The position numbers were made by a program, and so were the translations under genes. Below, one piece after another: positions 17,832 to 57,155 of a stretch of 64,000 nt of DNA; position 1 is the first letter of the stretch; each line of letters begins with the position of its first letter. Source of the DNA: Mobula hypostoma (lineage: Eukaryota); the NCBI RefSeq assembly GCF_963921235.1, contig NC_086108.1, positions 58,964,001 to 59,028,000 of the forward strand, in the 5' to 3' direction. Below the pieces are notes generated by a model. That model made no database searches, had not been told where the DNA came from, and saw only the letters and a list, made by a program, of their open reading frames with translations.

Positions 17832-17859
17832 CATGGTTTACTGAAAAGAAAATCATGTG

Positions 17860-18420
17860 GACAGATTTATAAAAGTGTTTTGAAAATGTAACTAGTAGGT
17901 TGGCTAAAGGGAAGCTGTGGATTAATAATAGCATTTGATATGGTGGCATATACAGGGGCATCACATAATGTAAGGGGTTCTATGTTTAGGGACAATATAA
18001 TTGCAGATAGAGGATTGACTTTTGGACAGAAAACGGAGTTGGGACCTATGAGCTAGCTCAGTAGGATTTCACTGCTCAGGGGTTGCTGGGCCCAGTGCTT
18101 GCGCAATGGCTTTTCATAATTTGCATTATTGACTTTGATATAAGAACAAACTGCAACTGCCTGGAGAATGAGTAATGTCTCTGAATGTGCATTTATGAGG
18201 CAGTATTTTACAGGGAAAAGCCAGCAAAACAAAATTCTGCAGTGTTTAAGGCCCAAGACAGAATTAGTCTTCCCCACATAAAAAACCCTTTCTTCATGCA
18301 TATTGCTGCTGCAATGGCAATTAGATTGTCTTGACAAGGAGAAAACTGTGGGGAGGATAGTGTGGACAATTGGTAATGGAGGGTGGTGGGGTGTTCTGCA
18401 CTTTGATTTTGGGTAGCTTC
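17860..18420 (+). mobile_element. Very old CR1 RT remnant
   Basis: Decayed words gcatttgatatggtg, tttccactgctcaggggttgctgggcc-like and gttctgcactttgattttggg. Confidence 0.4.
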
Positions 18421-19129
18421 ATAAGGGAAAGAGTAATAATTGGCAGGTGGTGATGGAAGGGGTGGTGGATTGAAGAGTTCGGACTGACAATTGGCTGTAA
18501 GTAGGTTAGAGACTCAGTGTAGGCTGGGAGAGAAGGCTTGTGTCTGGGAAGAAGTTTGAGGCCAAGGGAGAACTGTCAGAAAGACAAGGTTTTAAATTTA
18601 AAGAGGACATACCTGAGGAGAATATCCTTTCTGGATTGTACTCCGCATGAATGGGTGCTGTCCTTTCAAGTAACGAATTGGCAGGCTTCGCAGGAGCTGC
18701 ATTTCTAAACAGCAGGCCACACATGTGCCAACTAAGTTACGGAAACAATACCTTTGCGTGTTTTGGATGCCATGTTCACATGCAAGTGACTCTGTCTAGA
18801 TGCAGAAATGGAGGACGTGCATTGAAGGTGCAAACGTCACAGAACTCATACTATCTGCAATTTTCCTTTGCATTTTGCTTTACTGAAACTGACATTGTGC
18901 ACAATTCAAATTCCAGCTAACCAAGTTTCTTGATAATATCAAACCAGGTGGATAAGTTAAGTTTTGAGGAGGATGGATATCAAAAGTTTATGTGATTAGA
19001 TACAATGTCAGAGGAACTGAAACATTTGTTGCAGGATGGCATGTAAGCCGGGATCCTAGTGTGGCATCCACTAAATGAGCCCTACCTCAGTGCAGCTGGT
19101 GTTAAGCAAACTAGAACATCATCCTGACA

Positions 19130-19390
19130 CTTCTTTTTTCTGTTTTCTTCTCCATAATGCTACATCTCAGAGAGACATAGTATCAATGATGACAGCCTTT
19201 CCCTCAATGCCAGCAAAACTAAAGAGCTGGTCATTGACTTCAGATAGCTGGCAAGGTCAAGAGGGCTGACAGATTCAAGTTCCTAGGAACAAACATCACC
19301 AGTAGCCTGATCTGGTCCAGCCACATAGTCGTCATGGTCCAGAAAGTGGATTCCCTCCTCTATTTCCTTAGGAGACTAAAGTAATCCAGC
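19130..19390 (+). mobile_element. Rex-Babar-type LINE RT fragment
   Basis: ctcaatgccagcaaaactaaagagctggtcattgacttcag and ttcaagttcctaggaacaaacatcacc (LN.SKTKELVIDFR, FKFLGTNI). Confidence 0.65.
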
Positions 19391-20007
19391 ATAGCTGTAA
19401 AATGTCACTTCAGAGGTACAATGGCAAAGAAATGGAGGAGGATCTTCATAAGTATTTTGCTCAGTCTTCATTGTGGAGGATACGAGCAGTTTGCCTGAAA
19501 TTCTAGAGTGTCAGGGGGCGGAAGTGAGTGTAGTTGCTTATACCGTGGAGAAGGTACCTGGACCTCATGGACTACGCGACAGGGTTCTGAAAGGGATCGT
19601 TGATGAGATTGTGGAGGCATTAGTAATGATCTTTCCAGAATCATTGGATTCTGGAATGGTTCCAGAGGACTGGAAATTTGCAGATGTTACTTCACTCTTT
19701 AGTAACGGAGGGAAGCAGAAGAAAGGAAATTATGGGCCTGTTAGCCTGACTTCAGTGGTTGGAACAATGTTGGAGTCTATTAATAGGATGATGTTTTGGG
19801 GTACTTGGAGGCAATTGATATACCAGGTCAGAGTCAGCATGATTTCCTAAAGATAAAATCTTGCCTGACAAATCTGTTGGAATTCTTTGAGGAAATAACA
19901 GGCAGGATATAAAAAGGAAAGTCATTGGATGTTGTGTACTTCGATTTTCAGAAGGCCTTTGACAAGGTGCCATACATCAGGCTACTTAACAAATTACGAA
20001 CCCATGG

Positions 20008-23000
20008 CTTTTTAGAGCAGTTTGTTGTTGAGCCTACTAGGGACCAGCTATACTGGATTGGATGTTATGTAATGAACCAGAGGCGATTAGGGAGCTTCAG
20101 GTAAAAAAAACCTCTCAGGAACCAGTGATCACAATATGATTGAGTTCAACTTGAAATTTGATAGGGAGAAAGTGAAGTCTGATGTAGCAGTATTTCAGTG
20201 GAGTAAGGGAAATTACAGTGGTATGAGAGAGGAGTTGGCCAAAGTAAACTAGAAAGAGCTGCTGGCAAGGTGTCAGCAGAACAGCAATGGCATGCATTTC
20301 TAGGAAAAATAAGGAAGGTGCAGGACTTATGTATTCCAAAACTGAAGAAATACTCAAAAAGTAAAATAGTACAACAATGGCTGACAAGGGAGGTCAAAGA
20401 TATTGTAAACGCAAAAGAAAGGGAATACTACAAAACAAAAATTAGTGGGAAGATAAAGGATCGGGAAGTTTTTAAAAACCTACATAGAGTAACTAAAAAA
20501 ATTATTAGAAGGGAAAAGATAAAATATGAAAGCAAGCTAGCAAATAATGTCAAAGTGGGTAGTAAAACTTTTTTCATGTATGTTAAAAATAAAAAAAAAT
20601 GAGAGTGGATATAGGACTGCTAGAAAATGAGGCAGAAGAAATAATAACAGGGGACAAGGAGATGGCTGATGAGCTAAATGAGTATTTTGCATCACTCTTT
20701 ATGCCTAATGTTGTAGTGTGTGAAGGAAGAGAGCTGAGTGCAGCTATTATAATAAGAGAATATGTGCTCAAAAAGCTGAAAGACCTAAAGACCTATAAGT
20801 CAACCAGACCAGATGAACTGCACCCTAGGGTTCTGAAAGAGGTAGCATTAGAGATTGTGGTGGCATTAGAAATGATCTTTCAAAAATCATTGGACTCTGG
20901 TATGGTGCAAGAGGACTGGAAAATTGCAAATGTCACTCCACTCTTTAAGAAAGGAGGAGGGCATCAGAAAGGAAATTATAGACCAGTTAGCCTGACTTCA
21001 GTGGTTGGGAAGATGTTAGAGTCAATTGTTAAGGATGAGGTTATGGAGTACTTGGTGACACAGGACATGATAGTACAAAGTCAGCATTGCTTCCTTCAGG
21101 GAAAATCCTGCCTGATGAACCTGTTGGAATTCTTGGAAGAGATCACAAGTAGGATAGATAAAGGGGATGCAGTGGGTGTTGTATATTTGGACTTTCAGAA
21201 GGCCTTTGACAAGGTACCACACATGAGGCTGCTTACCAAGTTAAGAGCCCATGGTGTTACGGAAAAGTTACTAACATGGTTAGAGCATTGGCTGATTGGT
21301 AGGAGGCAGCGTGTAGGAATGAAAGGATACTTTTTTGGTTGGATGCCAGTGACTAGTGGTGTTTCGTAGGGGTCGGTGTTGGGACCACTTCTTTTTATGC
21401 TGTATATAAAGGAATGATTTAGATGATGGAATAGATGGTTTTGTTGCGAAGTTTGCAGATGATACGAAGATTGGTGGAGGGGCAGGTAGTGTTGAGTAGG
21501 ATGCAGAAGGACTTGGACAGATTAGGAGAATGGGCAAGAAAATGGCAAATGAAATACAATGTTGGAAAATACATGGTCATTCATTTTGGTAGCGTGGACT
21601 ATGTGTGGACTATTTTCCAACTGGGGAGAAAATCCAAAATCTGAGATGCAAAGGGATTTGGGAGTCTTTGTGGAGAACACCCTAAAGGTTAACTTGCAGT
21701 TTGAGTTGGTGGTGAGGGAGGCAAATGCCATGCTAGCATTCATTTCAAGAGGTGTAGAATACAAGAGCAAGGATGTGATGCTGAGGCTTTATAAGGCACT
21801 GGTGAAGCCTTATCTTGAGTACTCTTCTGAGTACTCAGTAACAGTTTTGGGCCCTTCATCTTAAAAAGATGTGCTGGCATTGGAGAGGGTCCAGAGGAGG
21901 TTCACAAGGATGATTCCAGGAATGAAAGGATTAAGTTTTAAAGGATTAGCTTTAAGTTCCTCGGGGTCAATATCACCAATGACCTGACTTGGTCCAACCA
22001 AGCAGAGTTCACTGCCAAGAAGGCCCACCAGTGCCTTTACTTCCTGAGAAAACTAAAGAAATTTGGCCTGCCCCTAAAACCCTCACTAATTTTTATAGAT
22101 GCACCGTAGAAAGCATTCTTCTAGGGTGCATCACAACCTGGTATGGAAGTTGTCCTGTCCAAGACCGAAAGAAGCTGCAGAAGATCGTGAACAGGGCGCA
22201 GCACATCACATAAACCAATCTTCTGTCCTTGGACTCACTTTACACCGCATGCTGTTGGAGCAGTGCTGCCAGGATAATCAAGGACACGGCCCACCCAGCC
22301 AACACACTTTTTATCCCTCTTCTCTCCAGGAGAAGGCTCAGTTGCTTGAAGACTCGTACGGCCAGATTTGGGAACAGCTTCTTTCCAACTGTGATAAGAC
22401 TGCTGAACGGATCCTGACCCAGATCTGGGCCGTAACCTCCAAATACCTGGACCTGCCTCTCGGTTTTTTTGCACTACCTTACTTTCCATTTTTCTATTTT
22501 CTATTTATGATTTATAATTTAATTTTTTAATATTTACTGATTTTTACTATTTTTAATATTTAATATTTGTAATCCAGGGAGCGGGAAGTGCAGAATCAAA
22601 TATCACTGTGATAATTGTATGTTCTAGTATGAATTGTTTGGCGACAATAAAGTATAAACTATAAAGTATTCTCATATGAGGAACATTTGATGGTTCTGGT
22701 TCTGTACTCACTGGAATTCAGGAGGACGCAGGGAGATCTCACTGAAACCTTTCAAATGTTGAAAGGCCTAGACAGAGTAGATGTGAAAAGTCTAGGACAA
22801 GAGAGCACAACCTCAGGATAGAGGAGCGCCCTTTCAAAACAGAGTTGCGGAGAAATTTCTTTAGCCAAAGGGTGGTGAATTTGTGGAATTTGTTGCCACA
22901 TGCAGCTGTGGAGGCTGGGTCATTGGGTGTATTTAAGGCAGAGATTGATAGGTTCTTGATTGGACATGACATCAAAGGTTACGGGGAGAAGGCCGGGAAC

Positions 23001-30843: not shown

Positions 30844-33800
30844 ATGGTGGAGACTCCACAAAAGAAGGAGAAAATGTACAAATTCCATCCAGAATGGGAA
30901 GAGCAGTTTCTATTTACCTTGGTGAAAGACAAGTGTGTATGTACGTTGTGCTGCCAAACACAAGCACTGACTAAAAGAGGGAATCTGGAGTGGCACCACA
31001 ACACCAACCACCAGAAATTTAAAGACACCCACCCCCCCAAAGAGCGCAATTCGTGCCAGGAAAGTTGAGGAACTGAAATCGGGGTTGAAGGTCCAGTAAT
31101 CATCTTCCACAAAACATGCTGCTCAAAATAAGGCTGATATTGAAGCATCATTGCATGTAAGTCACCTTTTGGCTAAACACAAGAAGCCTTTTACAAACGG
31201 TGACTTATTCAAGGAAGCAATGGCCATTACCACAGAGACTGTTTTTAATGACTTTAAAAACAAAAACGACATCAAAACCGTAATACATAACATACTGCTT
31301 GGCCCTGCAACAGTGACAAGGAGGTTGGAGTCACTGTAAGAGGATGTGGATCGACAAATCTTAAAGGACTTGTCATTCTGTGAATATTTTTCACTACAGT
31401 TCGATGAATCCCTGGATGTAATGCAAACAGCTCAGTTTGTTGTATTTGTCAGAATGGCTTTCCAGGATTTTACAACCAAGAAGGACTTCCTCACTCTTTT
31501 GCAATGAAAGGAGAGAATGAGAAGTGAGGATATTTACAATGAGTTTAAAAAATATGTCCATGAAAATGACATCTCCATTCATAAACTGGTGACAATTACT
31601 ATTATGGGGCCCCCGTAATGCGCGGTGTGCACGTTAGTTTTATAGCACTGTGCCGTAACACTGTGATTTTCCCAACTTCCTGGATTATCACTGTGTGATT
31701 CATCAGCAGGCCTTGGCTGGGAAGGTCGTGGACTTTCCTCATGTAATGACACTGGTGGTCAAACTGATAAACTTGATTCGAGCAAAAGTGCTGCAGCACC
31801 GATTATTCAAGGCGTTACTAGGTGAGCTCAATACCGCTTACTTCGGCAGTTGAACGGGGCACGACTGCGCAAACGCATGTGAGTCGGACCGTGAGGCAGT
31901 GGGAGTGTTTAAAAGAGAGCAGTTTGTGGAAGTCGGTCATTTTCTTCAGCAGTTGAATGGGGCACGACTGCGCAAGCACATGTAAGTCGGACCGTGAAGC
32001 AGCAGGAGTGTTTAAAAGAGAGTAGATTAATGGAGCAGGCGATGTTGTAACGGGCGATGGAGTAGAGGGAGACAGAGTAGGAAGGCTTTGACTCCTGAGG
32101 CTTCGGCGAGCAGAGACTGAGGAAGAACTTCACTCCAAGTGAGGTAAGGTTGGGTAAGTTCCTTTAATAAATCTAATTACCTTAAGAGTAGGTAATGGAG
32201 GCAGCAGTTAAGGCAGTTGAGTGCACCATTTGCAGGATGTGGGAAGTCAGAGCGAGCACAATCGTCCCTGATAACTACACCTGTGAAAGGTGTATCCAGC
32301 TGCAGCTCCTGACAAACCGAGTTAGGGAACTGGAGCTGGAGCTGGATGAACTTTGGATCATTCTGGAAGCAGAGGCAGAAATAAACAGGAGTTACAGGGA
32401 GATAGTCACCCCTAAGAGTCAGGAGATAAGTAGCTGGGTGACTGTCAGGAGAGGGAAGGGGAATAGACAGAATGAGCAGAGCACCCCTGTGGCCGTTCCC
32501 ACCATCGTTTTGGATACTGTTGATGGGGACGACCTACCAGGGACAAGTTGCAGTGTTTGTGTCTCTGGCACCGAGACGGAACCCTCAGCTCAGAAGGGAA
32601 GGAGGGAAGGGAAGGAGGGAAAAGAGGAGAGCAGTAGTGATAGTGGATTCAATAGTTAAGGGGACAGATAAGAGGTTCTGTGGAAGAGATCGAGAATCCC
32701 GGATGGTCTGTTGCCTCCCTGGTGCCAAGGTCCGTGATATCTCGGATCGAGTTCTCGGTATTCTCAAGAGGGAGGGTGAGCAGCCGGAAGTCATGGTCCA
32801 TGTAGGGACCAATGACGTGGGTAGGAAGAGTGAGGAGGTCCTGAAAGGTGAGTTTAGGGAGTTAGGCGCCAAGTTAAAGGACAGGACCTCCAGGATAGCA
32901 ATCCCAGGATTGCTACCAGTGCCACGTGCAGGCGGGTTTAGAAATACTAAGATAGCGTAGATCAACACATGGCTGAAGACATGGTGCAGGAGGGAGGGCT
33001 TCAGATTTTTAGATAATTGGGCAGTTTTCCAGGGAAGGTGGGACCTGTTCCGGTGGGATGGTCTACAACTGAACTGGAGGGGGACAAATATTCTTGCAGG
33101 TCGGTTTGCTAGAGAGGCTCCAGTGGATTTAAACCAGATACGGGGGTGGGGGGGATGGGAAACTAGAGTGTAGGAACAGATATAGGGAAGAAGGAAGAAA
33201 AAGAAAATAGTAAAGTTGTTTGCACCGTTAGTGATAAACAGAGAGAAAGAGGTGGAAAACTCCTTAAATGGATTTATTTTAATGCTAGGAGCATTATAAG
33301 AAAGGTGGTTGAGCTTAGAGCATTGAATGATACCTGGAAATATTATTTTGTAGCTATTAGTGAAACATGGTTACAGGAGGGGTGTCATTGGCAACTAAAT
33401 ATTCCTGGATTTCATTGCTTCAGGTGTGATAGAATCGGAGGGACAAGAGGGGGAGGTGTTGCATTGCTTGTCAGAGAAAATATTACAGCGGTGCTCTGGC
33501 AGGATAGATTAGAGGGCTAGTCTAGGGAGGCTATTTGGGTGGAATTGAGGAATGGGAAGGGTGTAGTAATTCTTATGGGGGTGTATTATAAACCACCAAA
33601 TGGGGAGCTAGAATTGGAGAAGCAAATTTGTAAGGAGACAGCAGATATTTGTAGTAAGCACAGGGTTGTGATTGTGGGAGATTTTAATTTTCCACACATA
33701 GACTGGGAAATCCATACTGTAAAAGGGCTGGATGGTTTGGAGTTTGTGAAACGTGTGCAGGGTAGTTTTTTGCAGCAATACATAGAGGTATCAACTAGAG

Positions 33801-36800
33801 AAGGGACAGTGTTGGATCTCCTGTTAGGGAATGAGATAGGTCAGGTGACGGAGGATTGTGTTGGGGAGCGCTTCGGGTCCGGTGATCACAATGCTATTAG
33901 TTTCAATATAATTATGGAGGAGCATAGGTCTGGACCCAGGGTTGAGATTTTTGATTGGAGAAGGGCTAACTTTGAGGAGATGCGAAAGGATTTAGGAGGA
34001 GTGGGTTGGGACAATTTGTTTTATGGGAAGAATGTAATAGAGAAATTGAGGTCATTTAAAGGTGAAATTTTGAGAGTACAGAATCTTTATGTTCCTGTTA
34101 GGTTGAAAGGAAAGGTTAAAAGTTTGAGAGAGCCATGGTTTTCAAGGGATATTGGAAACTTGGTTCAGAAAAAGAGAGATATCTACAATAAATATAGGCA
34201 GCATGGAGTAAATGAGGTGCTTAAGGAATATAAAGAATGTATAAAAAATCTTAAGAAAGAAATTAGAAAAACTAAAAGAAGATAAGAGGTTGCTTTGGCA
34301 AGTAAGGTGAAAATAAATCCCAAGGGTTTCTACCATTATATTAATAGCAAAAGGATAGTGAGGGATAAAATTGGTCCCTTAGAGAATCAGAGTGGACAGC
34401 TATGTGTGGAGCCAAAAGAGATGGGGGAAATTCTGAACAATTTCTTTTCTTCGGTATTCACTAAGGAGAAGGATATTTAATTGTGTAAGATAAGGGAAAC
34501 ATGTAGGGAAGTTATGGAAACTATGATGATTAAAGAAGAGGAAGTACTGGAGGTTTTAAAGAATATAAAAGTCGATAAGTCTTCGGGTCTGACAGGATAT
34601 TCCCTAGGACCTTGAGGGAAGTTAGTGTGGAAATAGCAGGGGCTCTGACAGAGATATTTCAAATGTCATTAGAAACGTGGATGGTGCCAGAGGATTGGCG
34701 TATTGCTCATGTTGTTCCATTGTTTAAAAAGGTTTCTAAGAGTAAACCTAGCAATTATTGGCCTGTGAGTTTGACATCAGTGGTGGGTAAATTGATGGAA
34801 AGTATTTTTAGAGATGGTATATAAAATTATCTGGATAGACAGGGTTTGATTAGGAACAGTCAACATGGATTTGTGCGTGGAAGGTCATGTTTGACAAATC
34901 TTATTGAATTTTTTGAAGAGGATACTAGGAAAGTTGACAAGGTTAAAGCAGTGGATGTTGTCTATATGGACTTCAGTAAGGCCTTTGACAAGGTTCCACA
35001 TGAAAGGTTGGTTAGCAAGGTTCAATCGTTAGGTATTAATATTGAAGTAGTAAAATGGATTCAGCAGTGGCTGGATGGGAGATGCCAGAGAGTGGTAGTG
35101 GATAACTGTTTGTCAGATTGAAGGCCAGTGATTAGTGGTATGCCTCAGGGATCTGTACTGGGTCCAATGTTGTTTGTCATATACATTAATGATCTGGATG
35201 AAGGGGTGGTAAATTGGATGAGTAAGTATGCAGATGATATTAAGATAGGTGGTGTTGTGGATAATGAAATAGGTTCTCAAAGCTTGCAGAGAGATTTAGG
35301 CCAGTTAGAAGAGTGGGCTGAAAGATAGCAGATGGAGTTTAATGCTGATAAATGTGAGGTGCCATATTTTGGTAGGACTAATCAAAATAGGACATATATG
35401 GTAAATGGTGGGGCATTGAAGAATGCAGTAGGACAGAGGGATCTAGGAATAATGGTGCATAGTTCCCTGAAGGTGGAATCTCATGTGAATAGGGTGTTAA
35501 AGAAAGCTTTTGGTATGCTGGCCTTTATTAATCAGAGCATTGAGTATAGGAGTTGGGATGTAATGTTGAAATTGTACAAGGCATTGGTGAGGCCAAATTT
35601 GGAGTATTGTGTACTGTATTGGTCACTGAATTATCGGAAAGATATCAACAAAATAGAGAGAGTACAGAGAAGAATTATTAGAATGTTACCTGGGTTTCAT
35701 CACCTAAGTTACAGAGAAAGGTTGAACAAGTTGGGTCCTTATTCTTTGGAACGTAGAAGGTTGAGGGGGGACTTGATAGAGGTACTTAAAATTATGAGGG
35801 GGATAGATAGAGTTGACATGGATAGGCTTTTTCCATTGAGAGTTGGGGAGATTCAAACAAAAGGACATGAGTTGAGAGATAAAGGGCAAAAGTTTAGGGG
35901 TAACTTGAGGGGGAACTTCTTTACTCAGAGAGTGGTAGCTGTGTGGAACGAGCTTCCAGCAGAAGTGGTTGAGGCAGGTTCGATGTTGTCATTTAAAGTT
36001 AAATTGGACAGCTATATGGACAGGAAAGGATTGGAGGGTTGTGGGCTGGGTGCAGGTCGGTGGGACTAGGTGAGAGTAAGAGTTCGGCACGGACTAGAAG
36101 GGCCGAGATGGCTTGTTTCCGTGCTGTAATTGTTATATGGTTATATGGTTACGGAGCCATAATTCTTCAGGTTGATGTTCGGTGGTTGAGTCACGGCAAA
36201 GTGCTGCAATGATTTGTTGACTTGCTGCCTGAGATAAAGACTTTTCTGTCGACAAGAAACGAGGAGCATGAGGAACTGTCAGATGATGCGTGGCTACTGG
36301 ATTTAGGGTTTCTGACAGACCTAACAGCTAAATTAAATGCACTTAACAACGAGCTTATGGGAGAAGACCGAAACCTGTCCCACATGATAAGCACAGTAAA
36401 TGCGTTTAAGGCCAAGCTCTGTATTTGGATTTCAAATTTAAAGAACGGAGGCTGACACGTTGGAGAAAATGTTACAGGCCATCAAGGGAAAAAAATGATT
36501 TTTGCTCTGTGCAGTACTGTGCTTACCTAGACAAACTGGCAATAGAGTTCGATTGGTGTTTTGGGGAGTTATCATCATGAAAGATATTGCTGCATTTATT
36601 TCAAACCCAATTCTGCCGATTGATATAGAACAGATAGCAGCCAAATTCCAGCAAGTATTTGGTGTGCCAAGTGATATTGAAATGGAAACAATTGATTTGC
36701 AAAATGACATCGAGCTTAAAGCAAGATCAAGGGACGGTGACTTTTGGGGGCTTGTCAGCAGGGAGAAGTTTCCTCATCTCACCACGTGCACTAAAAGTCA

Positions 36801-48270: not shown

Positions 48271-50076
48271 CGAGTACAGTATACTGCTACTCCTCAGGCT
48301 GGAGTTCAGTGGTCCGTTGGGAAGTACGCACCTACTGGGGACTTTTGGGGTAATACTTGACCGGAAGATCTGTTAAAAATTTAAATGTCCTTGTATTTTC
48401 TTTTATTAGGTATTTCTCAGCTGTGAAATGTAATGCTTTTTTCAATTAATCAAAATTTATAGTTCATAATGTGAAAGTAGAACATCGTCACAGACGTATC
48501 AAATCATTATGCCAATATGATGTTTTCAGGAATGAAATAAGTTACTTTTTCCTGAATGCACTTATTCTTTAATTTCACTTTACAAAAAGGAAATCTTAGA
48601 GTCTACATATTTAGTTTCAGATGTTGTGCAGTTACACCATCTTTGAGCTCTTTTGTGTTTAAAACTGGTGATTTTCCTTCACAATTTCTAGACTGGAATG
48701 CTTGACTTGAGTACTTAAGAAATGTTTGTGTTCCAAACTCTAAGGATAGCAGTGACCTTTATTAACATCATCTATGCAATAAACCTGGCAGACTTTGTAA
48801 ATTGTCACTGAATGTCAACATACTTCAGTGACAGCTTTCAGGCTGAGTCTGAGACTTCTCAACATTTCACCTACAGTTATTTAAAACAGAAATTAATTTC
48901 ACTAGGTGAAGATTTCTCACTTTTCTCTGTGAAATGTTTTAATCCATTTCTTTGAACTTTATCTGTTTCAGAATCAGATACTTTATATTATGGCAGTTGC
49001 TGACGCTGATTACCAGTCTAAAAGAATTAATAGAAGTGTTAGTCTCTGCTTCATAAAAAATTTTTATTACATTATGGGGGTCCTATTCTGATTACATCAC
49101 TACTTTGCCTGTAAAATCACTACATCACTGTAAAACAATATCTTTTCATCTTGTTTTGTCATTTGATTTCTGTTAAAGGAAATTCTTCTGGTGTGTTATT
49201 TGAACTAGTAACTGAGCAACGATCATGCTTTTTGATAAAGTCAAACAATAGATCCATCATTGTAACAGTTCAGGAAATATGAATAAAGCTAGAATATAAA
49301 GTTGACAAAAGGAAATGGGATATATTGCTATCTGACCTTTTTGTCTAATGTAGAAATTTTGTATATGTTAATTAAACAGGTTTTAATTGGTAATTAGAAT
49401 CCAAAACAGCACTTTGTAATTCAGGGAAAAGTCAATCAATGTTTTCTTAAAGGTCAAGGATGTGACATGTATATTGAAGTAATATCACAAATTACTACTT
49501 TTGCTGCGTGGTAAGAATATGACAGATAATGTGTGTGTACTTTTTCTCCACAATCTAATCTAATGATTCGTACCACACTGATACAGCAGTTTAGGCAAGT
49601 TCTACTAACTCCTCTCTAACATACTTGGAAAGGCTAGAATCCAAGCCTCACTGATGAGCTACTGATTTTTCTTTCATTCCTACCTGCCAATCCTTCTGGA
49701 ATTATATTCCATTGGTGTACAACATAAAGAATGACTGCTTTCTCTGGCAGTCACCCACATCGCATCCTTGTTGAGACAGAGGTCGAAAGCAGCAGTGTGA
49801 CTGCAGATTTCAGAACTGGTACTCTTTGTTCCTTCCCTTGCTTTTCCCTTCTTCTAACATTTTGTAACCTTGTTAACTACAGACTTAGTTTAATCTAGCT
49901 GTAAAGATTTATTGTGCCTCTGCACAGATCTAATTTTAAAGGTTTTCTGCACAATGAAATTTCGCCTGTCAGCTAGTTTTTTCAAAAATGATTACAAATT
50001 GTTATGCTGCAAGTTTGTGAAGTGAGCATGAACCGAGTAATACATTTACTCAGTGACTGTATGTGCTAGAACTTGA

Positions 50077-50114
50077 ACACACAGACACACACACAAACAC
50101 ACTCACACACACGT

Positions 50115-50158
<44 letters not shown>

Positions 50159-50244
50159 ACACACACGTGCACACACACACGCGCACATACACACGCATGC
50201 ATGCGTATATACAAACACACACACACACACGCACACGCACACAC
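50077..50244. repeat. Compound (CA)n microsatellite
   Basis: Directly visible, with a repeated acacacaaacacactcacacacacgtgc subunit. Confidence 0.98.
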
Positions 50245-51168
50245 AACATTTAAATAAAGGCACTGAGAAACACAGTGTAGTAAATTCCTGATGTGCATCA
50301 AGTGCAGAACTACACATCATGTACTGCAAATGTGAGACATAAATTGGACAATTTATTAATGCCTGTGGCAAATAAAACATTCCTAGAACCAAGACTATTG
50401 AAGGTTATATTCTGCAATCCTAAACAGCTTAAAGACACCACAGGGACCATTGCTTGAAAATAATAGCCCAGACTGCACTGTGGATAACAAACCTCACACT
50501 TGCACAATAATCCTGTCCTCTGAGCCTCAGTTGGATGTTGCACCTGAACACAAAATGAAAGAGTTACCACTTTCCCTATACGTGCTTAGATCTCTTAAAC
50601 TGTCAAAATTCAACTTCTTGTTGTAGATACAGAGTCTGCCTCACTCCCATCTCTCAGAGGGAATACGGCATGAAATGGTCAGCAGCACAGCTCAATCCAT
50701 TCACTCCAGTCATTTCCAGTCCACTCTATTCCCTTTTTATGATACCTCTCTCACCCAGTGCAAGGAATAAAGACATCTGAGTGAATGAAATGCAGCATGT
50801 TATATGTCCAATTAAAGAGTATAACTTCTGTGTTTACATATCTTAAAGTTACATCACATGCCACCATGTTTCTGGTACTATTTAATTGAAAGGTTACTTG
50901 CAAAGACTAATCATAGAGTCAAGCACTACCAAGTCTGCAGTTTTCACTTTGCATTCTCTTTGCATGTGATCAACTAAGACGTAGAGGGAGTCCAGACTGG
51001 TGCAATGGTGGGACAATAACGTGCAACACTTGATGACTTGACTCCTTTTCTGGATTTTGGATTATGTAATATGTAGGCTTTCACATAGCTACTCAGACAT
51101 GTTTCAATATTATGCAATTTGGGCATGAATCAAAAGTTGCAGGTAACTTTTCTTAAATTTAAAATATA

Positions 51169-51844
51169 AGTAGCCCCCCTGGCTACCCTCAGGGTCGCTC
51201 GGCTCGCTGTCATCTAGGGAAACAGCCCTCGGCCCCGCCAAACTGGGTAATAGTTTGTGTGGATGCTGTGTGATGTACCCCACCCCACCCAAATAACAGA
51301 CAATACACCAGATACAATTAAATGATTTACAGTTTATAGATATTACTGGGACTATATAATTAATAGAGAATAAAATATATAAGGAAAATAAAAGGCGCCA
51401 CACTGATCAAAGTTCAATTTCTTCGTGCACAACAGTTGGAGCTCAATCAATTCCTGACGACCACCCGGATCCTGTCGACTCACGGCTCGGGACCGGAGCC
51501 TTTCCGCACGTCCACCATCCTCTCTGTCTCCTCTCCTCGCCGAACACCCCGCTCGGGGTCCCACCCCATTAGCGGACCCCACAGCACCTTCCATTCTCTG
51601 TCCCTCTCTCCCACCTTCTGCCTCAAGACCCCACGCATGTAGTATCTTCAAATTCACCAAAAACATAACAACTATCCCAATTGGTTCATTCGTCCTCATA
51701 TCAATAGATAATACAAAACAAACCGCTAGCGGGAAGGACTTTCTCGGCATTTAACATAACAAAGAAGCATTCCTCAGTATAACATAACAAAGAAGCCATT
51801 TTAATTAGCCTCCGCAGTAACATAAAAGACGAAAACCCCTTACA
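51169..51844 (-). repeat. 3' LTR (676 bp)
   Basis: Direct repeat of 54625-55303, roughly 95% identical by eye; terminal T changed to A at 51169. Confidence 0.96.
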
Positions 51845-51856
51845 CTCTCCCCCACC
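51845..51856 (-). other. Polypurine tract
   Basis: Minus strand GGTGGGGGAGAG directly before the TGTAAGGGG start of the 3' LTR. Confidence 0.85.
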
Positions 51857-52344
51857 AAATAAAGTCATGCCCTCATGACTTCTAAATAAATCTCCAACCA
51901 GTCCTGCAGACACACAACACACACATACACAGATACGCACAGTGACAGTGCTCCCCAAACAGTGGACCTTACGCCTGTCCTACGGGCACTACATAGGCCA
52001 ACCTATCTGGGAGCTTCTTAACCCTCCGAGACCTCCGCACCCTCTCACCTAAACCCAAAAGGCTCAGACACTACTAGGGATACCTTGGGCCTGCTTGCCA
52101 ACTCCTCTCTCACTCAGGCCACCATTACAGCTCGGAGCCCCCAGTCCCGTGACCAGGGCCCCACCTCTTTTCCTTCCTGATCCTGCTGTAACTCAGACTG
52201 CCCACAGCTAGGTCTCCCCACTTCACCTGACTCAGTGGGAAAAGGGCCAAAGGTCTCTTCCTCAATCACGGGGAAGTTAGCGGAAGGCAGCATGTACTAC
52301 ATGTGCAGCACATCATCCTTCGAATCCGTATTCTTCCTCATTCC

Positions 52345-53190
52345 CTCGATCGATAGCTGCTGTTTGAGTTTCTCCACACTGAAACATTTAGCCGGGGCTA
52401 CTCTTTCGGCCTCCTGCAGTCGAGACGTCGGCTTCGGGGACTCCTTCAACTCTCACCACAGCCTCAGCAGCTCTGACTTAGGGTTCTTGGCCATCTCCAT
52501 CTGGGATGCAGTTACCCCACCAGCTTCTTCCACCCTGACCTGAAAAGCAGCAGTTAAAAGATGTTCAGCCTCCAGTTTTTCTTCCTGATGACGTCTTCCA
52601 GGTCAACTTTCAGGCTCCTTTCAAATGTCCGCCTCCCTTTTCCGAGATCTGTCCTCCATTTCTTCATTTCACCGGGAGTGTAGTCAAACTCCCCTCCCTG
52701 GGCTCTCGGTTTTCTGCTGGCCTTAGTCAGAACACTTCCTTGATCTTCCCCAACTTTTAAGTCTTCCAATCTTTCATGAATCGACGTCTTGAGTTTCCGC
52801 TGATCCCTTCGAAGGTGGGTCATTGTTTCTTCTTGCTGGATTAATTCATCAGTACATGACCGCAGTGTCGGCTCGGAATTCCGTTGCTCCTTCTCTACGT
52901 TGACGAGCGTGAATTCCAAATCTGCAATGGTCGTCCCACAAACGTGGCACTCAGTCTCCGGCCAGCATTTCTGGGCACTCAGTTCAGCGGTGCAAATCCC
53001 CTCTCTCCCCTGTGTCTCTTTCAAATTGACGACCTGGGTTTTCATCCCCAGGTCCACCAACGTCTTTTCCAACACCAGGAAGTTCAACTGGTATGTCGGG
53101 TCAATTTTCTCACATTGCACCAAACTCTTCCGGCCAAAAACTCCTCCACATTTTATACTTCGCTTTTGTTGCCTGGGCTCAGCCACTCGC
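52345..53190 (-). pseudogene. Captured, internally deleted sarcomeric myosin heavy chain rod (S2/LMM) fragment
   Basis: ORF 52554-53195: AELSAQK..ETEC...IADLEFTLVNVEKE...LEDLKVGEDQGSVLTKA...KKWRTDL..RRTFERSLK; second frame 52345-52587: [54 protein letters not shown]; motifs are colinear with the myosin II rod as I recall it. Confidence 0.85.
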
Positions 53191-53191
53191 C

Positions 53192-53480
53192 TCACCTCAT
53201 AGCCCCCCCGGCGAATCCAAACTCTAGGAGGTCATCCACATACGTCAAAACTCCACACACCTTCACTTCCCCCATGGTCTTCCTCTTGCCCTGCGGGAAG
53301 GATGCAGGGGCTCCGGATATGCTCTTGGGCATCTTTTTGGATCGGAAGAATCCTAGGGAACTAATAACGGCCGTCGTCGGCTCGACAGCCACACTCCTCG
53401 GGATCTGGCAACATCCACTCCTCAGATCCAGCACATTAAACCACGTCGCATAATCCACACACATGCTGCCTCCATCTTCC
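53192..53480 (-). pseudogene. Degenerate, deleted Gypsy RT fragment
   Basis: [35 protein letters not shown] and TYVDDLL; ends just after the YxDD motif. Confidence 0.9.
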
Positions 53481-53689
53481 ACGCCGCTAGGGTCCAGTTG
53501 CCGTGACCTCTCTCTCACTGAGGTGTCTTCAGCGGTCAACTCCCCTCCCTCATGGTAGTTTGGAGCGTCTACTAAGAGGGTCTCACCCTCAGCTACTTTC
53601 CCCAGGCTGTACTACCGCTGGGTCTTGTTTAAATTCAGTACCGGCTCAAGGCTGCTACACATGTCCCCAGAAGCAACTCGACGCGCTGG

Positions 53690-53960
53690 CTGCCCAGACA
53701 ATGCCCCCATGAACTCCAGGGTCATTAACCAATCATTGTCTTCTGGATAACTACTGGCACTGGTACCCAAAATCTCCGGTGCCCTTGCGGTTGTCAAGGG
53801 TAAATGCTTCAGACACTGGTTGTAAAACGAACTGTACAACTTGACCTGTGCCCCGGGGTCGAGGATGGCTTTAGCGTCGCTTCCCTCTATCCGTAATGAC
53901 ACCCTCGGGCGTGGTCCCTCTACGCCTTCAGGAATAGGGTCTTCTCCTTTCGGAAGTTCA
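53690..53960 (-). pseudogene. Degenerate Gypsy aspartic protease
   Basis: PIPEGVEGP...[14 protein letters not shown]: the DTG/DSG site reads DPG. Confidence 0.8.
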
Positions 53961-54099
53961 TTGGTACATTGCTGGGAACATGCTTCCCCAGAGACCCCAA
54001 GCCGTTCCCCCACTGGGCCTTCACTAAGTTTCCCGACACCCCTCTGATTAGCTGAACAACTGACGGAGGGGCTGATCCCCTGAAATGATCCCCCGGCAC

Positions 54100-54600
54100 T
54101 GCAAGCAATTTAGCTGCCCTCCTAGCCAGAGAAGACACACTGAAAACTTTCCCCCCTCTTTCAAATAACTGACAGCTGTCACTCCGGTGTAAGTGAACCT
54201 GACAGCTCTAACACCGTCACCAGCCCGCCTACTCAAACTTTCAACCAATCCCTGTCGCTCTCCCTCCACCGAGCACTGCCACTCATCTAACAACTGAGAG
54301 ATCCACTCTGCCCATGTCTCGCACGTCTCCGCCCCTTTTGGGGTGGACACTATCCCCAGCGCCAGACCGAGCCTGCCAGAGCTAGAACAATTATTCGCAG
54401 ACCCTACCTCCAAATCAGACCACTCTTTCCTCTCTCTCCCAACAGCAAGGACAGCCCCGAGTTCCACCTCCAACTCGTCAATGCTAGTCTGAACTCGAAC
54501 AAAGACCGCACCCACCACGCATGCAGCAATAACCAGCAAATAACCCACAGAGACACACATTACAGATTTAAACAGGGCACCCACACAGCATACAGTAGAC
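54100..54600 (-). pseudogene. Degenerate PNMA-type gag remnant
   Basis: [41 protein letters not shown] resembles the PNMA/Gypsy capsid motif (P.GEE.FE.W....L.EWQ.S..EKR..L.ESL). Confidence 0.8.
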
Positions 54601-54603
54601 CCA

Positions 54604-54621
54604 ATCTGGGACGAGCCTCCA
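54604..54621 (-). other. Primer-binding site, tRNA-Pro-like
   Basis: Minus strand TGGAGGCTCGTCCCAGAT matches the canonical Pro PBS TGGGGGCTCGTCCGGGAT at 15/18, 3 nt after the 5' LTR. Confidence 0.8.
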
Positions 54622-54624
54622 CAT

Positions 54625-55303
54625 TGTAGCCCCCCGGTCACCCTCAGGGTCGTTCGGCTCACTGTCATCTAGGGAAACAGCCCTCGGCCCCGCCAAACTG
54701 GGGTAATAGTTTGTGTGGATGCTGTGTGATGTACCCCACCCCGCCCAAATAACAGACAATATACCAGATACAATTAAATGATTTACAGTTTATAGATATT
54801 ACTGGGACTATATAATTAATAGAGAATAAAATATAAAAGGAAAATAAAAGGCACCACACTTATCAAAGTTCAATCTCTTCGTGCACAAAACAGTTGGAGC
54901 TCAATCAATTCCTGACGACCACCCGGATCCTGTCGACTCACGGCTCGGGACCGGAGCCTTTCCGCACGTCCAGCGTCCTCTCCATCTCCCCTCCTCGCCG
55001 AACACCCCGCTCGGGGTCCCACCCTGTTAGCGGACCCCACAGCACCTGGTCCATTCTCTGTCCCTCTCTCCCGCCTTCTGCCTCAAGACCCCACGCATAC
55101 AGTATCTTCAAATTCACCAAAAACATACAACTATCCCAATTGGTTCATTCGTCCTCATATCAATAGATAATACAAAACAAACCGCTAGCGGGAAGGACTT
55201 TCTTAGTGTTTAACATAACAAAGAAGCATTCCCAAGTATAACATAACAAAGAAGCCATTTTAATTAGCCTCCGTAGTAACATAAAAGATGAAACCCCCTT
55301 ACA
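54625..55303 (-). repeat. 5' LTR (679 bp)
   Basis: TGTAGCCCC...CCCCTTACA on the plus strand; direct repeat of 51169-51844. Confidence 0.96.
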
Positions 55304-56129
55304 TATATATATCTATTCCCACTACCTACACTAACTACTGCATAGCCTTTACTGACATCCCAGTCTGAAATTCATCTCAAACCCCATTTGAAAGTACTTC
55401 CTTTTTACCCCTTTCCAGCTAGCATTCCTGATTATTTCCATACTGGATCAAACTATTGACTCTGTGGTTCAGGAATCTGGAGCCATCACTTGCCCAATTC
55501 CCTCACTGATCCTTAGTGCAGCAACTTCTCCTAAACCCTGACAAACAACATTTAATCCTTGGTCTAAGCCTTCTTACTCATCATCAGCTCATTTCTACCC
55601 CCTTATAATTAATTTCACAATCCATTTGTAACCCTGTCCTGACCTGACACTTGAGGACTCAATCACCTCTCAATGAAATTTGACTCTGAGTCACATAAGA
55701 TGATATGATGACTGAGAGGCAGAAAGCTTGGCTATGACACAGATTTTAAAAGAGAAACTAGATAAAGAGAAATAGAGTTTAAAGAAGAAATGATATAGCT
55801 TCTAGCCATGATATCAAAAAGGCTAACTTCCAATGATGGAGCAAGTACATTTGAAGATACTCAAGTGACCAAGAGCAGGGGATACAGAGTTGTGTGGGAA
55901 AGTATTTTTCACCCAGTGAATGGTTATAAAACTCATATAATCAAACAGGCGTGGAAATAGTCAATCAAATCTCAAGTCTGAATAAACATACAAAAGGAAT
56001 TGTGAGGTCAGAGAGATGGAACTGAATATTCTCCCTCTGCCATACTGATTTGTATTTTCTACAATTGAGGATTTCAAAGGTAGAGCAGAACTGGTAGTGG
56101 AAAAGGACAATCTTAGTTATGGTGCTAAT

Positions 56130-56383
56130 AACAGGAATTCTGCAGATGCTGGAAATTCAAGCAACATACATCAAAGTTGCTGGTGAACGCAGCAGGCCAG
56201 GCAGCATCTATAGGAAGAAGCGCAGTCGACGTTTCAGGCCGAGACCCTTCATCAGGACTAACTGAAGGAAGCTCTGGAAGCCTTCAGTTAGTCCCGACGA
56301 AGGGTCTCGGCCTGAAACGTCGACTGCGCTTCTTCCTATAGATGCTGCCTGGCCTGCTGCGTTCACCAGCAACTTTGATGTAT
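56130..56383. mobile_element. Young PLE-derived fold-back element with hammerhead motifs
   Basis: Arms 56163-56268 and 56281-56386 (106 bp, 2 mismatches, 12-nt loop); 14-bp TSD GTTATGGTGCTAAT (56116-56129 and 56384-56397). Confidence 0.95.
56223..56260 (-). ncRNA. Minimal type I hammerhead ribozyme motif
   Basis: tagtc-CTGATGA-agggtctcggcct-GAAAC-GTC-gactg; the opposite-arm copy (56289-56326) has CCGACGA, a core mutation. Confidence 0.8.
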
Positions 56384-57155
56384 GTTATGGTGCTAATCTT
56401 TGGGTGAAATATGAAAACATAGTGGCATACAACTTGCATAAGTTTCTTACAGGTGCTATTGAGGAGGATGAAGTTGTTGTCGCAAGAACACAAGAATTGA
56501 ACACAAGGGTTTTGCTATTCCCTAATATCCAGTTGGAGGGGATTTCTGCCATTAAGTGCTGTACATCATGCAAGTAGGTCCAGAATTTAGAAATGCAGAA
56601 AGGGCTGAGAAAGGAAGTAGTGAGATCAAACTGGATAATACTTGCATACATGTGAATGTTTACAAAGGTTTGCAAGTTTTATTAAAGATTTAGACTCTGG
56701 AATCCAAAATATAGTTTCTAAATTGACAGAGGAAATAAAATTAGTGGGGATAGCCAAGAATGAGAAGTATCATGACAAATTACAATACAGTGCTAATATA
56801 TTTTCAATATGGCCATATAATTGGCAAATGAATGCCTGTACTGAACAGTGGGAAATATTAAATGTTGTTAAGAAAAATTAAGTTGCCATATATTACTTGA
56901 AAATTGGAAACTAAATGGGGTAGAAAAATAAAGGAGGCTCATAGTCCAATTACACAAATCATTATAACTATGTTAGTAGGGCAATTAAAAAGAAAGCTGA
57001 GCACTATGGTTTATTCCTAGATGAATATAATTAAAGCACAGAGAAGTCATGTTAAATGTTTCAACAGGAATTCTGCAGATGCTGGAAATTCAAGCAACAC
57101 ACATCAAAGTTGCTGGTGAACGCAGCAGGCCAAGCAGCATCTATAGGAAGAGGCG

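What the first reader, a model, noticed from the sequence alone, without database searches (positions are those of the whole stretch)
52345..53195. Gypsy LTR retrotransposon has captured a spliced sarcomeric myosin heavy-chain rod fragment in place of RNase H and integrase
Seen in sequence: directly after the RT YVDD motif the element switches to a 213-codon ORF and an overlapping second frame that are not pol, then returns to a pol-like C-terminal tail (VRRSRRVKKLPDRLAY, near 52000-52040). Established knowledge, recalled rather than searched: these frames align colinearly with the myosin II rod. AELSAQK..ETEC...IADLEFTLVNVEKE matches AELTAKKRKLEDEC...IDDLELTLAKVEKE; LEDLKVGEDQGSVLTKA matches LDDLQAEEDKVNTLTKA; KKWRTDL..RRTFERSLK matches [27 protein letters not shown] matches EEELEAER; RVEEAGGVTASQMEM matches [31 protein letters not shown] matches RLQEAE..AKCSSLEKTK. 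The W* in LLRLW*EL is TGG TGA, as expected from CpG decay of CGG CGA (RR). Inference: the segment crosses several positions that are introns in vertebrate MYH genes without interruption, so a spliced mRNA was captured by RT template switching and later deleted internally. ELLRLRREL-like wording hints at an ancient class (MYH16/MYH7B-like).
Basis: partly seen in the sequence, partly recalled or inferred. Interest (0 to 1): 0.93.

Follow-up and report, generated by a model that had tools for sequence, protein, structure and literature searches.

The report
Jumping gene family carrying a myosin fragment
A crippled LTR retrotransposon in this ray genome long ago swapped its integrase for an intron-free piece of a muscle myosin gene. 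It then copied that piece to roughly a thousand places, where it decays as a passenger and is sometimes mislabelled as a myosin gene.

Summary
Window 52342-53045 (minus strand) is a colinear, internally deleted fragment of a sarcomeric myosin heavy-chain rod (PDB Myosin-7 residues 915-1070, E 1.9e-12). It lies inside a 4.1-kb LTR-bounded, Gypsy-type, non-autonomous element (51171-55303).

I found the donor. It is a divergent, intron-rich sarcomeric MYH gene of the same genome, at G000:C68 about 14.61-14.67 Mb. Less-decayed copies of the element match its exons at 89-97% nucleotide identity. They join exons that lie 2.7 and 12.4 kb apart in the gene. This shows that a spliced mRNA was captured.

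In those older copies the myosin piece sits between the end of RNase H and the C-terminal tail of pol. The capture therefore replaced integrase. The window's subfamily later lost the end of RT and most of RNase H.

The family is large: about 900-1300 first-look candidates. It also occurs in Mobula, Hypanus and Hemitrygon annotations, some named "myosin heavy chain-like". I found no sign of protein-level constraint.

The mechanism is known (LTR-mediated retroposition, Tan et al. 2016). The scan had already found this family in another window (e1-7791871).

The parts
54626..55303 (-). 5' LTR (678 bp), starting TGTAAGGGG
   Evidence: Direct repeat with 51171-51844. MAFFT alignment shows 34 differences in 673 aligned bases, K2P 0.053.
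54048..54668 (-). gag-like frame (PNMA-type capsid)
   Evidence: Pfam PNMA E 3.1e-5, 23.9 bits against a cut-off of 25. tblastn of autonomous gag-pol P0005 residues 159-222 maps to 54374-54183.
53711..54106 (-). Protease region
   Evidence: P0005 residues 423-563 match at 45% identity, E 9e-24. Pfam RVP is weak only, E 0.15.
53216..53530 (-). Reverse transcriptase remnant with two internal deletions; YVDD at 53242-53231
   Evidence: P0005 residues 816-979 match at 36% identity, E 1.9e-21, with gaps of 33 and 26 residues. Coordinates.
53046..53126 (-). RNase H remnant (SLVQCEKIDPTYQLNFLVLEKTLVDLG)
   Evidence: Read by eye against P0005 'SLSPSERNYPTHKLEFLALKWAVVDKLG'. The same RNase H stretch is matched by tblastn in copies L058 and L059. 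Coordinates.
52578..53045 (-). Myosin rod block 1 (about MYH residues 915-1095; donor exons B, C, D). This copy has a 44-bp deletion inside exon D.
   Evidence: PDB phmmer E 1.9e-12. blastn to donor exon D (L070 9756-9904) covers window 52690-52581. Other copies carry the extra 'MTIASLNEVEKLK'.
52537..52577 (-). Remnant of donor exon E ('LEAEH-LLTAAFQV' = 'LEDEQSLTAALQ'), in a shifted frame
   Evidence: Comparison with less-deleted copies P0006, P0017, L060 and L066. Coordinates.
52438..52536 (-). Myosin block 2: end of donor exon F2 joined to start of F3 (RVEEAGGVTASQMEM|AKNPKSELLRLW*ELKES), with TGG TGA at 52458-52453
   Evidence: blastn to L068 2778-2817 (87.5%) and 5489-5556 (80.9%); these lie 2.7 kb apart in the gene. 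Codons.
52342..52437 (-). Myosin block 3 ([11 protein letters not shown]...[17 protein letters not shown], about MYH residues 1395-1440)
   Evidence: P0002 residues 203-248 hit the MYH7(1361-1425) construct 4xa3, E 0.0023. tblastn of P0019 q526-565 on family copy L006 gives 55% identity.
52222..52341 (-). pol C-terminal tail resumes ([38 protein letters not shown])
   Evidence: tblastx E 3.8e-8 and blastn 67% over 118 nt to the tail downstream of integrase in an autonomous P0005-like copy, L071.
51845..52221 (-). Rest of the decayed tail, including the VRRSRRVKKLPDRLAY motif (52040-51993) and a purine-rich tract GGTGGGGGAGAG just before the 3' LTR
   Evidence: Sequence. Homology of this part to pol was not shown.
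51171..51844 (-). 3' LTR (674 bp)
   Evidence: All 19 other copies end their match at 51158-51170 or carry the LTR.

Best explanation
Window 51171-55303 (minus strand) is one decayed copy of a non-autonomous Ty3/Gypsy-type LTR retrotransposon family.

An ancestor of this family lost its integrase coding region. In its place it acquired, in sense orientation and in frame with pol, a reverse-transcribed piece of spliced mRNA from a host sarcomeric myosin heavy-chain gene. That gene is the intron-rich, divergent MYH at G000:C68 about 14.61-14.67 Mb, and it is probably MYH16-type.

The most likely route is template switching of reverse transcriptase between a co-packaged myosin mRNA and the element's RNA. 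This is inferred, not shown.

The chimera kept its LTRs, gag, protease and RT, so it could be mobilised with integrase supplied by autonomous relatives. Further internal deletions in RT, RNase H and the myosin piece produced the 4.1-kb form seen here.

That form multiplied to roughly a thousand candidate loci and is shared by mobulid and dasyatid rays. Today the myosin piece behaves as a neutral passenger.
For: Shown:
(1) Myosin homology: PDB E 1.9e-12, colinear. A second block hits MYH7 1361-1425.
(2) Donor: exon D of the C68 gene matches less-decayed copies at 97.3% (L061), 96.6% (L058), 93.3% (L066), 92.6% (L067), 92.5% (L060) and 91.9% (L059) over 147-149 nt. It matches family copy L006 at 82.6%, and the window at 76% and 91% in two pieces. 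Every match stops at the exon edges.
(3) Splicing: copy L066 joins exons F1, F2 and F3 directly, whereas in the gene they are separated by 12.4 kb and 2.7 kb. The window itself joins F2 to F3. It also runs uninterrupted across the two junctions ...ENK|VKN... and ...LDD|LEG... of another host MYH.
(4) Signature residues are shared only with the donor: GGVTASQ and ESELLRLRREL, ARVEELEEELDAER, and [25 protein letters not shown].
(5) Replacement of integrase: in L058, L059 and L066, pol runs to P0005 residue 1254-1272 (RNase H end plus linker) right before the myosin piece. After the myosin piece the pol tail resumes. Autonomous P0005 carries rve and Integrase_H2C2 there and has no myosin domain.
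(6) Family size: 876, 1313 and 1154 first-look candidates. The 35 best other places cover the 941-nt query at 86-91% identity. Of 19 fetched copies, 16 are colinear from gag to the 3' LTR.
(7) One origin: the same 3' fusion ('...KQQL..E..KNTDSKD..VWYMLP') and the same 'LEE(A/S)|KKKL' deletion occur in all subfamilies.
(8) No constraint: the shared versus private non-synonymous/synonymous counts are 81/31 vs 175/63 in the myosin+tail region (p 0.80), 28/16 vs 80/41 in gag, 37/18 vs 101/43 in PR, and 41/17 vs 86/42 in RT.
(9) The mechanism is documented in animals: Tan et al. 2016, PMC5131818 (abstract, passages).
Against: - Template switching is inferred. I could not inspect the fusion points for microsimilarity, because donor exons B, C and E and the 3' exon were not retrieved and the parental element is unknown.
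- Pfam Myosin_tail_1 does not recognise the window frame or L058.
- The main family is much more diverged from the donor (17-24% in exon D) than the sister subfamily (3-8%), although both share the fusion points. I explain this by many more replication cycles in the main family, but that is untested.
- The autonomous partner was not identified. The only autonomous relative compared (P0005-like) is just 36-46% identical in PR and RT and 67% identical in nucleotides in the tail.
- The no-constraint test used 20 copies and a single real copy (L006) as reference.
Confidence: 0.9

Rival explanations
1. A LINE-made processed pseudogene of the myosin gene landed inside an integrated LTR element. A later deletion removed integrase, and the damaged element then amplified.
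For: The myosin piece is intronless, as any retrocopy would be. Other intronless myosin-tail fragments without nearby pol exist in this genome, so retrocopying of MYH genes does happen here.
Against: The piece is an internal part of the rod with no 3' end or poly(A). It abuts pol sequence directly on both sides, in the same orientation and frame. No integrase remnant flanks it. Integrase is replaced, not interrupted.
Confidence: 0.04
2. The rod fragment is, or was, kept because the Gag-PR-RT-rod fusion protein is useful to the element or the host, for example as a coiled-coil multimeriser.
For: The fragment is in frame with pol. One copy (L006) keeps a 716-codon open frame from gag into the rod. 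Many copies show long stop-free frames, up to 824 aa. Annotation pipelines call such frames as genes.
Against: Shared (lineage) changes show the same non-synonymous to synonymous ratio as private (post-insertion) changes in every region, gag included (Fisher p 0.73-0.85). The rod has been whittled down by several different deletions in different subfamilies. The window copy has frameshifts and stops.
Confidence: 0.05
3. There was more than one capture, or the rod piece was repeatedly refreshed by recombination with the donor mRNA. This would explain why one subfamily is only 3-8% from the donor while the main family is 17-24% away.
For: The identities to donor exon D are very unequal.
Against: All subfamilies share the same 5' and 3' fusion points and the same LEE(A/S)|KKKL deletion. 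Independent captures would not reproduce these. Exon D is only 149 nt, so the 3% figure rests on 4-5 differences.
Confidence: 0.08
4. The similarity to myosin is generic coiled-coil resemblance.
For: Pfam gives no Myosin_tail_1 hit for the window frame. Weak hits of relatives go to other coiled-coil families such as CENPH and MAP65.
Against: Relatives show 89-97% nucleotide identity to exons of a host MYH gene, bounded by the exon edges. All 12 PDB hits are myosin II heavy chains aligned at the same rod positions.
Confidence: 0.005

Closest known systems
LTR-mediated retrocopies of animals (Tan et al. 2016, Genome Res 26:1663, PMC5131818; abstract and searched passages read)
   Same: A spliced host mRNA piece sits inside a discontinuous LTR retrotransposon. 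It is in sense orientation and can be in frame. It arises by template switching during reverse transcription.
   Different: Those cases are young and single-copy or a few copies, with 'secondary retropositions' noted for only a few. Here the chimera became a non-autonomous family with about 1000 first-look candidates, shared by several ray genera. The microsimilarity at fusion points that defines their mechanism could not be checked here.
[quoted passage not shown]
   Same: An LTR retroelement carrying transduced fragments of cellular genes, with all copies sharing the same switch points.
   Different: Bs1 has 1-5 copies and three donor genes, and is reported as a functional chimeric gene. This family has one donor, about a thousand candidate loci and no detectable constraint.
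Oncogene transduction by acutely transforming retroviruses (recalled knowledge, no call)
   Same: Replacement of part of pol or env by spliced host cDNA, giving a replication-defective element that depends on a helper.
   Different: This is an endogenous Gypsy-type element in the germ line. The cargo is a structural coiled-coil fragment with no evident activity.
Autonomous PNMA-gag Gypsy elements of rays (P0005, Hypanus sabinus; P0005-like copies in this genome)
   Same: Same gag type (PNMA), same PR, RT, RNase H and pol-tail homology, and the same single gag-pol frame.
   Different: The autonomous elements carry integrase where this family carries myosin. Identity is only 36-46% in PR and RT, so P0005-like elements are relatives, not shown to be the helper.

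Membership tests
LTR-mediated retrocopy / transduced host gene fragment in an LTR retrotransposon | Host-derived sequence lies inside an LTR pair, flanked by element sequence | tested here: met
   LTRs at 51171-51844 and 54626-55303. pol lies on both sides of the fragment.
LTR-mediated retrocopy / transduced host gene fragment in an LTR retrotransposon | The fragment lacks the introns of a parental gene present elsewhere in the genome | tested here: met
   The parental gene is at C68:14.61-14.67 Mb. Exons F1, F2 and F3 (12.4 kb and 2.7 kb apart) are joined in L066, and F2 to F3 is joined in the window. Junctions B|C and C|D were judged on another host MYH.
LTR-mediated retrocopy / transduced host gene fragment in an LTR retrotransposon | Short microsimilarity at the fusion points (template-switch signature) | not testable with these tools
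The parental element is unknown.
LTR-mediated retrocopy / transduced host gene fragment in an LTR retrotransposon | No poly(A) tail or LINE-type hallmarks at the fragment's ends | tested here: met
   The 3' end of the fragment runs straight into the pol-tail coding sequence.
Autonomous Ty3/Gypsy LTR retrotransposon | gag, protease, RT, RNase H and integrase all present | tested here: not met
   gag, PR and a deleted RT are present. RNase H is reduced to a remnant. There is no integrase match anywhere in the element. The element is a non-autonomous derivative.
Pfam Myosin_tail_1 (PF01576) | Score at or above the gathering cut-off (38.1 bits) | tested here: not met
   The window frame has no hit at E<=1. 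Family copy L066 scores 41.0 bits for one piece (met) and 19.7 bits for the other. L058 has no hit. Homology rests instead.
MYH16-type ('ancient' masticatory) myosin as donor | Extra introns and large gene size relative to other sarcomeric MYH genes (Lee et al. 2019, PMC6402096, MYH16 section, passages read) | tested here: met
   The stretch that forms one exon in host genes C40, C2 and the C68 cluster (q250-387) is split by two extra introns in the donor. Exon D to exon F3 alone spans 54 kb.
MYH16-type ('ancient' masticatory) myosin as donor | Orthology to MYH16 by sequence phylogeny or synteny | not tested
   No MYH16 sequence was available to me. The donor exons are 61-67% identical to a lungfish myosin-7-like protein. 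The Narcine ortholog is named 'myosin-6-like' by its source.

The most novel reading that the evidence does not exclude
The in-frame coiled-coil rod gave this one chimeric lineage a replication advantage when it expanded. It might have done so by multimerising its Gag-Pol-like polyprotein, or by helping it enter the particles of the autonomous helper. This would explain why one defective chimera reached roughly a thousand candidate loci and persisted across ray families. The signal of selection would since have been erased in the decayed copies sampled here.
Probability: 0.07. Interest if true: 0.75.

Novelty: new member of a known kind. Interest (0 to 1): 0.45.

Why it matters
This is a clean vertebrate example of gene capture by an LTR retrotransposon. 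The donor gene, the spliced origin and the replaced element gene could all be identified, and the chimera went on to become a high-copy family. Reported animal cases are single or few copies.

It also matters for annotation. Frames of this family are annotated in ray genomes as 'myosin heavy chain, skeletal/cardiac/striated muscle-like'. That inflates myosin gene counts.

The family gives a set of dated pseudo-copies of an ancient-type MYH exon series. These could help calibrate neutral rates in elasmobranchs.

Tried and rejected
- **Non-muscle MYH loci:** blastn and tblastn of the fragment against the first three host MYH loci I fetched (C45, C36, C68:25.5 Mb) found nothing. By exon pattern these are the non-muscle/smooth-type genes, so they were the wrong comparison.
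- **Long query:** the search with the whole 1943-aa P0019 failed twice. A 610-aa part worked.
- **Early mis-reading:** I first read 'DPTYQLNF' as the RT thumb motif and 'KTLVDLGMK' as myosin. Less-decayed copies showed both belong to RNase H.
- **P0018** (an unnamed 958-bp contig) looked like a possible donor but has no close gene in this genome. Its nature stays open.
- **P0020** (Narcine) first looked TE-borne. It ends exactly at donor exon F1 and is 90% identical to donor exon D, so it is more likely the donor's ortholog.
- **The 10 kb upstream of donor exon D** holds no further rod exon.
- **ESM Atlas** on a donor exon gave only 'myosin heavy chain', with no class.
- **Expression:** no RNA holder is listed. 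Four runs guessed to be RNA hold short contigs of the family over all 30 bins of the element, but they may be DNA, so nothing can be said about transcription.
- **Target-site duplication:** ambiguous, because the element sits in a TA-rich tract.
- **Literature:** searches with 'LTR retrotransposon' + 'myosin heavy chain' + 'gene capture' (0 papers) and with retrotransposon + myosin + captured + coiled-coil + LTR (8 papers, none by its listed title or abstract opening on this) found no description of this family. Only the held library was searched. Repbase and Dfam could not be consulted.

Full report
**What is at the site**

The window is part of a 3.48-Gb vertebrate assembly (G000:C50). The closest annotated proteins come from devil rays and stingrays.

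Two 674-678-bp direct repeats lie on the minus strand, at 54626-55303 and 51171-51844. They differ at 34 of 673 aligned bases (K2P 0.053). They bound a 2.8-kb internal region.

Reading downstream from the 5' LTR, the internal region holds:
- a PNMA-type gag frame (Pfam E 3.1e-5, just under the cut-off);
- a protease region;
- a reverse transcriptase remnant with YVDD at 53242-53231.

All three are confirmed by tblastn of a 1566-aa autonomous gag-pol of Hypanus sabinus (P0005). P0005 carries the domains PNMA, zf-CCHC, RVT_1, RNase H and rve. The RT remnant has two internal deletions of 33 and 26 residues.

**Check of the observation**

The 225-codon stop-to-stop frame 52554-53231 gave 12 PDB sequences at E<=10. 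All are striated-muscle myosin II heavy chains, aligned as one colinear stretch to rod residues about 915-1070 (best E 1.9e-12). Pfam's Myosin_tail_1 did not hit this frame at E<=1. I count that against the claim only as a sign of how decayed and divergent the piece is.

A more intact family member from Mobula birostris (P0002) gave E 4e-13. For the downstream block it also gave a separate hit to an MYH7(1361-1425) construct.

**It is a family, not one copy**

The 941-nt stretch 52300-53240 has 876 first-look candidates in the genome, of which 40 were scored. The 35 best other places cover it end to end at 86-91% identity. Protein queries gave 1313 and 1154 candidates. These counts are unscored approximations.

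Of 19 other copies fetched, 16 are colinear with the window element from gag to the end of the 3' LTR. Three (L004, L010, L019) match only from RT or the myosin piece onward.

One copy (L006) has a single 716-codon open frame running gag-PR-RT-myosin, and P0004 reads PR-RT-myosin in one frame. The rod is therefore fused in frame to pol. The window copy has shifted frame at least three times relative to L006 and lacks 44 bp inside the rod.

**The donor**

My first comparison used the wrong host genes and found nothing. By exon pattern those were the non-muscle-type MYH loci.

A whole-library phmmer search with P0002 returned 29 hits. Many of those scanned against Pfam have no named domain or only an RT remnant, like this element's frames. 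Others are genuine myosin-tail proteins, including a 1943-aa lungfish myosin-7-like protein, P0019.

Searching the genome with P0019 residues 870-1479 revealed the host's sarcomeric MYH genes: a tandem cluster at C68:15.3-15.9 Mb, plus genes on C2 and C40. It also revealed one more divergent exon at C68:14.667 Mb.

That divergent gene carries the residues that mark the element's rod:
- 'RLEEAGGVTASQ' and 'ESELLRLRRELEEA';
- 'ARVEELEEELDAERAMRAK';
- '[44 protein letters not shown]'.

At the DNA level, its exon D (149 nt) matches the copies as follows:

| Copy | Identity to donor exon D |
|---|---|
| L061 | 97.3% |
| L058 | 96.6% |
| L066 | 93.3% |
| L067 | 92.6% |
| L060 | 92.5% |
| L059 | 91.9% |
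| L006 (main family) | 82.6% |
| Window | 76% and 91%, in two pieces |

Exons F1, F2 and F3 match L066 at 89-91%. All matches stop at the exon edges.

**Spliced origin**

In the gene, F1, F2 and F3 are separated by 12.4 kb and 2.7 kb. In L066 they abut, and in the window F2 abuts F3 at about 52493.

Exon D and F1 are 39 kb apart in the gene. In L066 they are separated by 98 nt, which encode the intervening exon-E peptide.

Upstream, the window frame runs without a break across two junctions mapped on another host MYH (C40)...ENK|VKN... and ...LDD|LEG.... The donor's own exons B and C were not retrieved, so those two junctions are judged on a paralog.

**What was replaced**

In the less-decayed copies L058, L059 and L066, pol continues to P0005 residue 1254-1272. 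That is the end of RNase H plus the linker '...NIDADALSRWEPGEEERDEEWES'. The rod starts directly after it, at about 'ADIEQHCTQHLK'.

After the rod, '[15 protein letters not shown]...[14 protein letters not shown]' matches the tail that follows integrase in an autonomous P0005-like copy (L071). The scores are tblastx E 3.8e-8 and 67% over 118 nt.

So the capture replaced the integrase region. The window's subfamily later lost the stretch from the end of RT to mid-RNase H, leaving a 27-codon RNase H remnant at 53126-53046. That assignment is by eye, anchored.

**Deletions inside the rod**

All subfamilies share a jump from '...RRELEE(A/S)' to 'KKKL..RLQEAEE...'. This skips about 200 rod residues and lies inside an exon, so it is not exon skipping. 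Both sides read '(E)LEEA' in myosins, which suggests a homology-guided switch. That is inference.

Subfamilies differ by further deletions. In the window family 'LEAEH-LLTAAFQV' is what remains of 'KLEDEQSLTAALQ'.

**The W* codon pair**

The donor has CTG CGG CGA GAG. L066 has CGT CGA, and L060 has TGG CGA. Of the 20 main-family loci, 17 matched my pattern. All 17 have TGG. The next codon is CGA in 10, CGG in 2, AGA in 1, and TGA in 4, including the window.

**Constraint**

I aligned 20 copies and used one real copy as reference, with no consensus. I then compared changes seen in two or more copies (made in replicating lineages) with private changes (made after insertion). The table gives non-synonymous/synonymous counts.

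| Region | Shared | Private | Fisher p |
|---|---|---|---|
| gag | 28/16 | 80/41 | 0.85 |
| PR | 37/18 | 101/43 | 0.73 |
| RT | 41/17 | 86/42 | 0.73 |
| myosin + tail | 81/31 | 175/63 | 0.80 |

Nothing in the element, gag included, shows protein-level constraint. This fits a non-autonomous element mobilised in trans, with the rod as a passenger.

**Age and range**

The window copy's LTRs differ by 5.3%.

Proteins with the same fusion and the same deletions are annotated in five ray species:
- Mobula birostris and Mobula hypostoma, some named 'myosin heavy chain, skeletal/cardiac/striated muscle-like';
- Hypanus sabinus;
- Hemitrygon akajei.

The deleted architecture therefore predates the split of mobulid and dasyatid rays, unless it moved horizontally. 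I did not date that split.

P0020 of the electric ray Narcine ('myosin-6-like isoform X4') is 90% identical to donor exon D and stops exactly at the F1 exon edge. It is probably the donor's ortholog, not a copy of the element.

**Donor class**

The donor splits into three exons a stretch that is one exon in the other host sarcomeric MYH genes. It also spans 54 kb between exon D and F3.

Lee et al. 2019 (PMC6402096, passages read) describe human MYH16 as about three times the size of typical sarcomeric MYH genes. They report five additional introns in it, and orthologs in sharks. This fits an MYH16-type donor. I made no sequence comparison with a named MYH16, so the class remains probable, not shown.

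**Comparison with what is known**

Tan et al. 2016 (PMC5131818; abstract, passages) showed that, in flies, mosquito, zebrafish, chicken and mammals, young retrocopies are chimeras of mRNA flanked by discontinuous LTR retrotransposons. They found microsimilarity at the fusion points, often in-frame products, and occasional secondary retroposition. They cite Bs1 of maize at 1-5 copies.

The present case is the same kind of event. It differs in how far the chimera amplified and how long it persisted.

My literature searches found no description of a myosin-carrying LTR family. Repeat databases could not be checked.

**Open points**

- The fusion-point microsimilarity was not examined.
- The helper element is not identified.
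- Transcription is unknown. Searches give only contigs from runs whose RNA status is a guess.
- I cannot yet explain why the main family is so much further from the donor than its sister subfamily.

Noticed in passing
G000:C76:3024901-3026700 (L071) and genome-wide: The P0005-like autonomous Gypsy family is very abundant: 15925 first-look candidates for its integrase core, with open frames up to 1714 aa. Its pol tail contains a tandem array of a 14-residue unit (GLGEGVAEPPVFQP).
   Followed up: partly
G000:C18:48745523-48746731 (L021); C50:30689110-30689772 (L022); C184 and C157 (L023, L024); C21:138691427-138692201 (L025, L036): Other intronless Myosin_tail_1 fragments with internal stops, up to 432 bits over profile positions 514-920. 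No P0005-like pol was found in those of these loci that were tested (L021-L025). They are probably ordinary retrocopies of other MYH genes.
   Followed up: partly
P0013, P0033, P0028 (library proteins): Annotated proteins elsewhere combine a piece like this element's rod with unrelated domains: Complex1_LYR in P0013, AbLIM_anchor in P0033, and an NPHP3-like TPR protein in P0028. These may be exonised copies or gene-model artefacts.
   Followed up: no
window 50051-50260: A (CA)n-rich microsatellite just outside the element.
   Followed up: no
window 56125-56390: Frames on opposite strands give the same peptides (…GRSAVDVSGRDPSSGLTEG…; …RLRFFL). This indicates an inverted duplication of about 130 bp arms.
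   Followed up: no
window 12000-22000 and 32000-36000: Stretches with a strong G-over-C skew, up to 0.48 in 2-kb windows.
   Followed up: no
window 51431-55244 (joints): Public contigs join the two LTR positions directly, skipping about 3.4-3.8 kb. This is as expected for solo LTRs of the family elsewhere.
   Followed up: no
G000:C68:14.61-14.67 Mb vs C68:15.3-15.9 Mb: The divergent donor MYH lies only about 0.65 Mb from the tandem cluster of at least nine fast-type MYH genes on the same contig. In human, by contrast, MYH16 is reported as unlinked (PMC6402096 passages).
   Followed up: no
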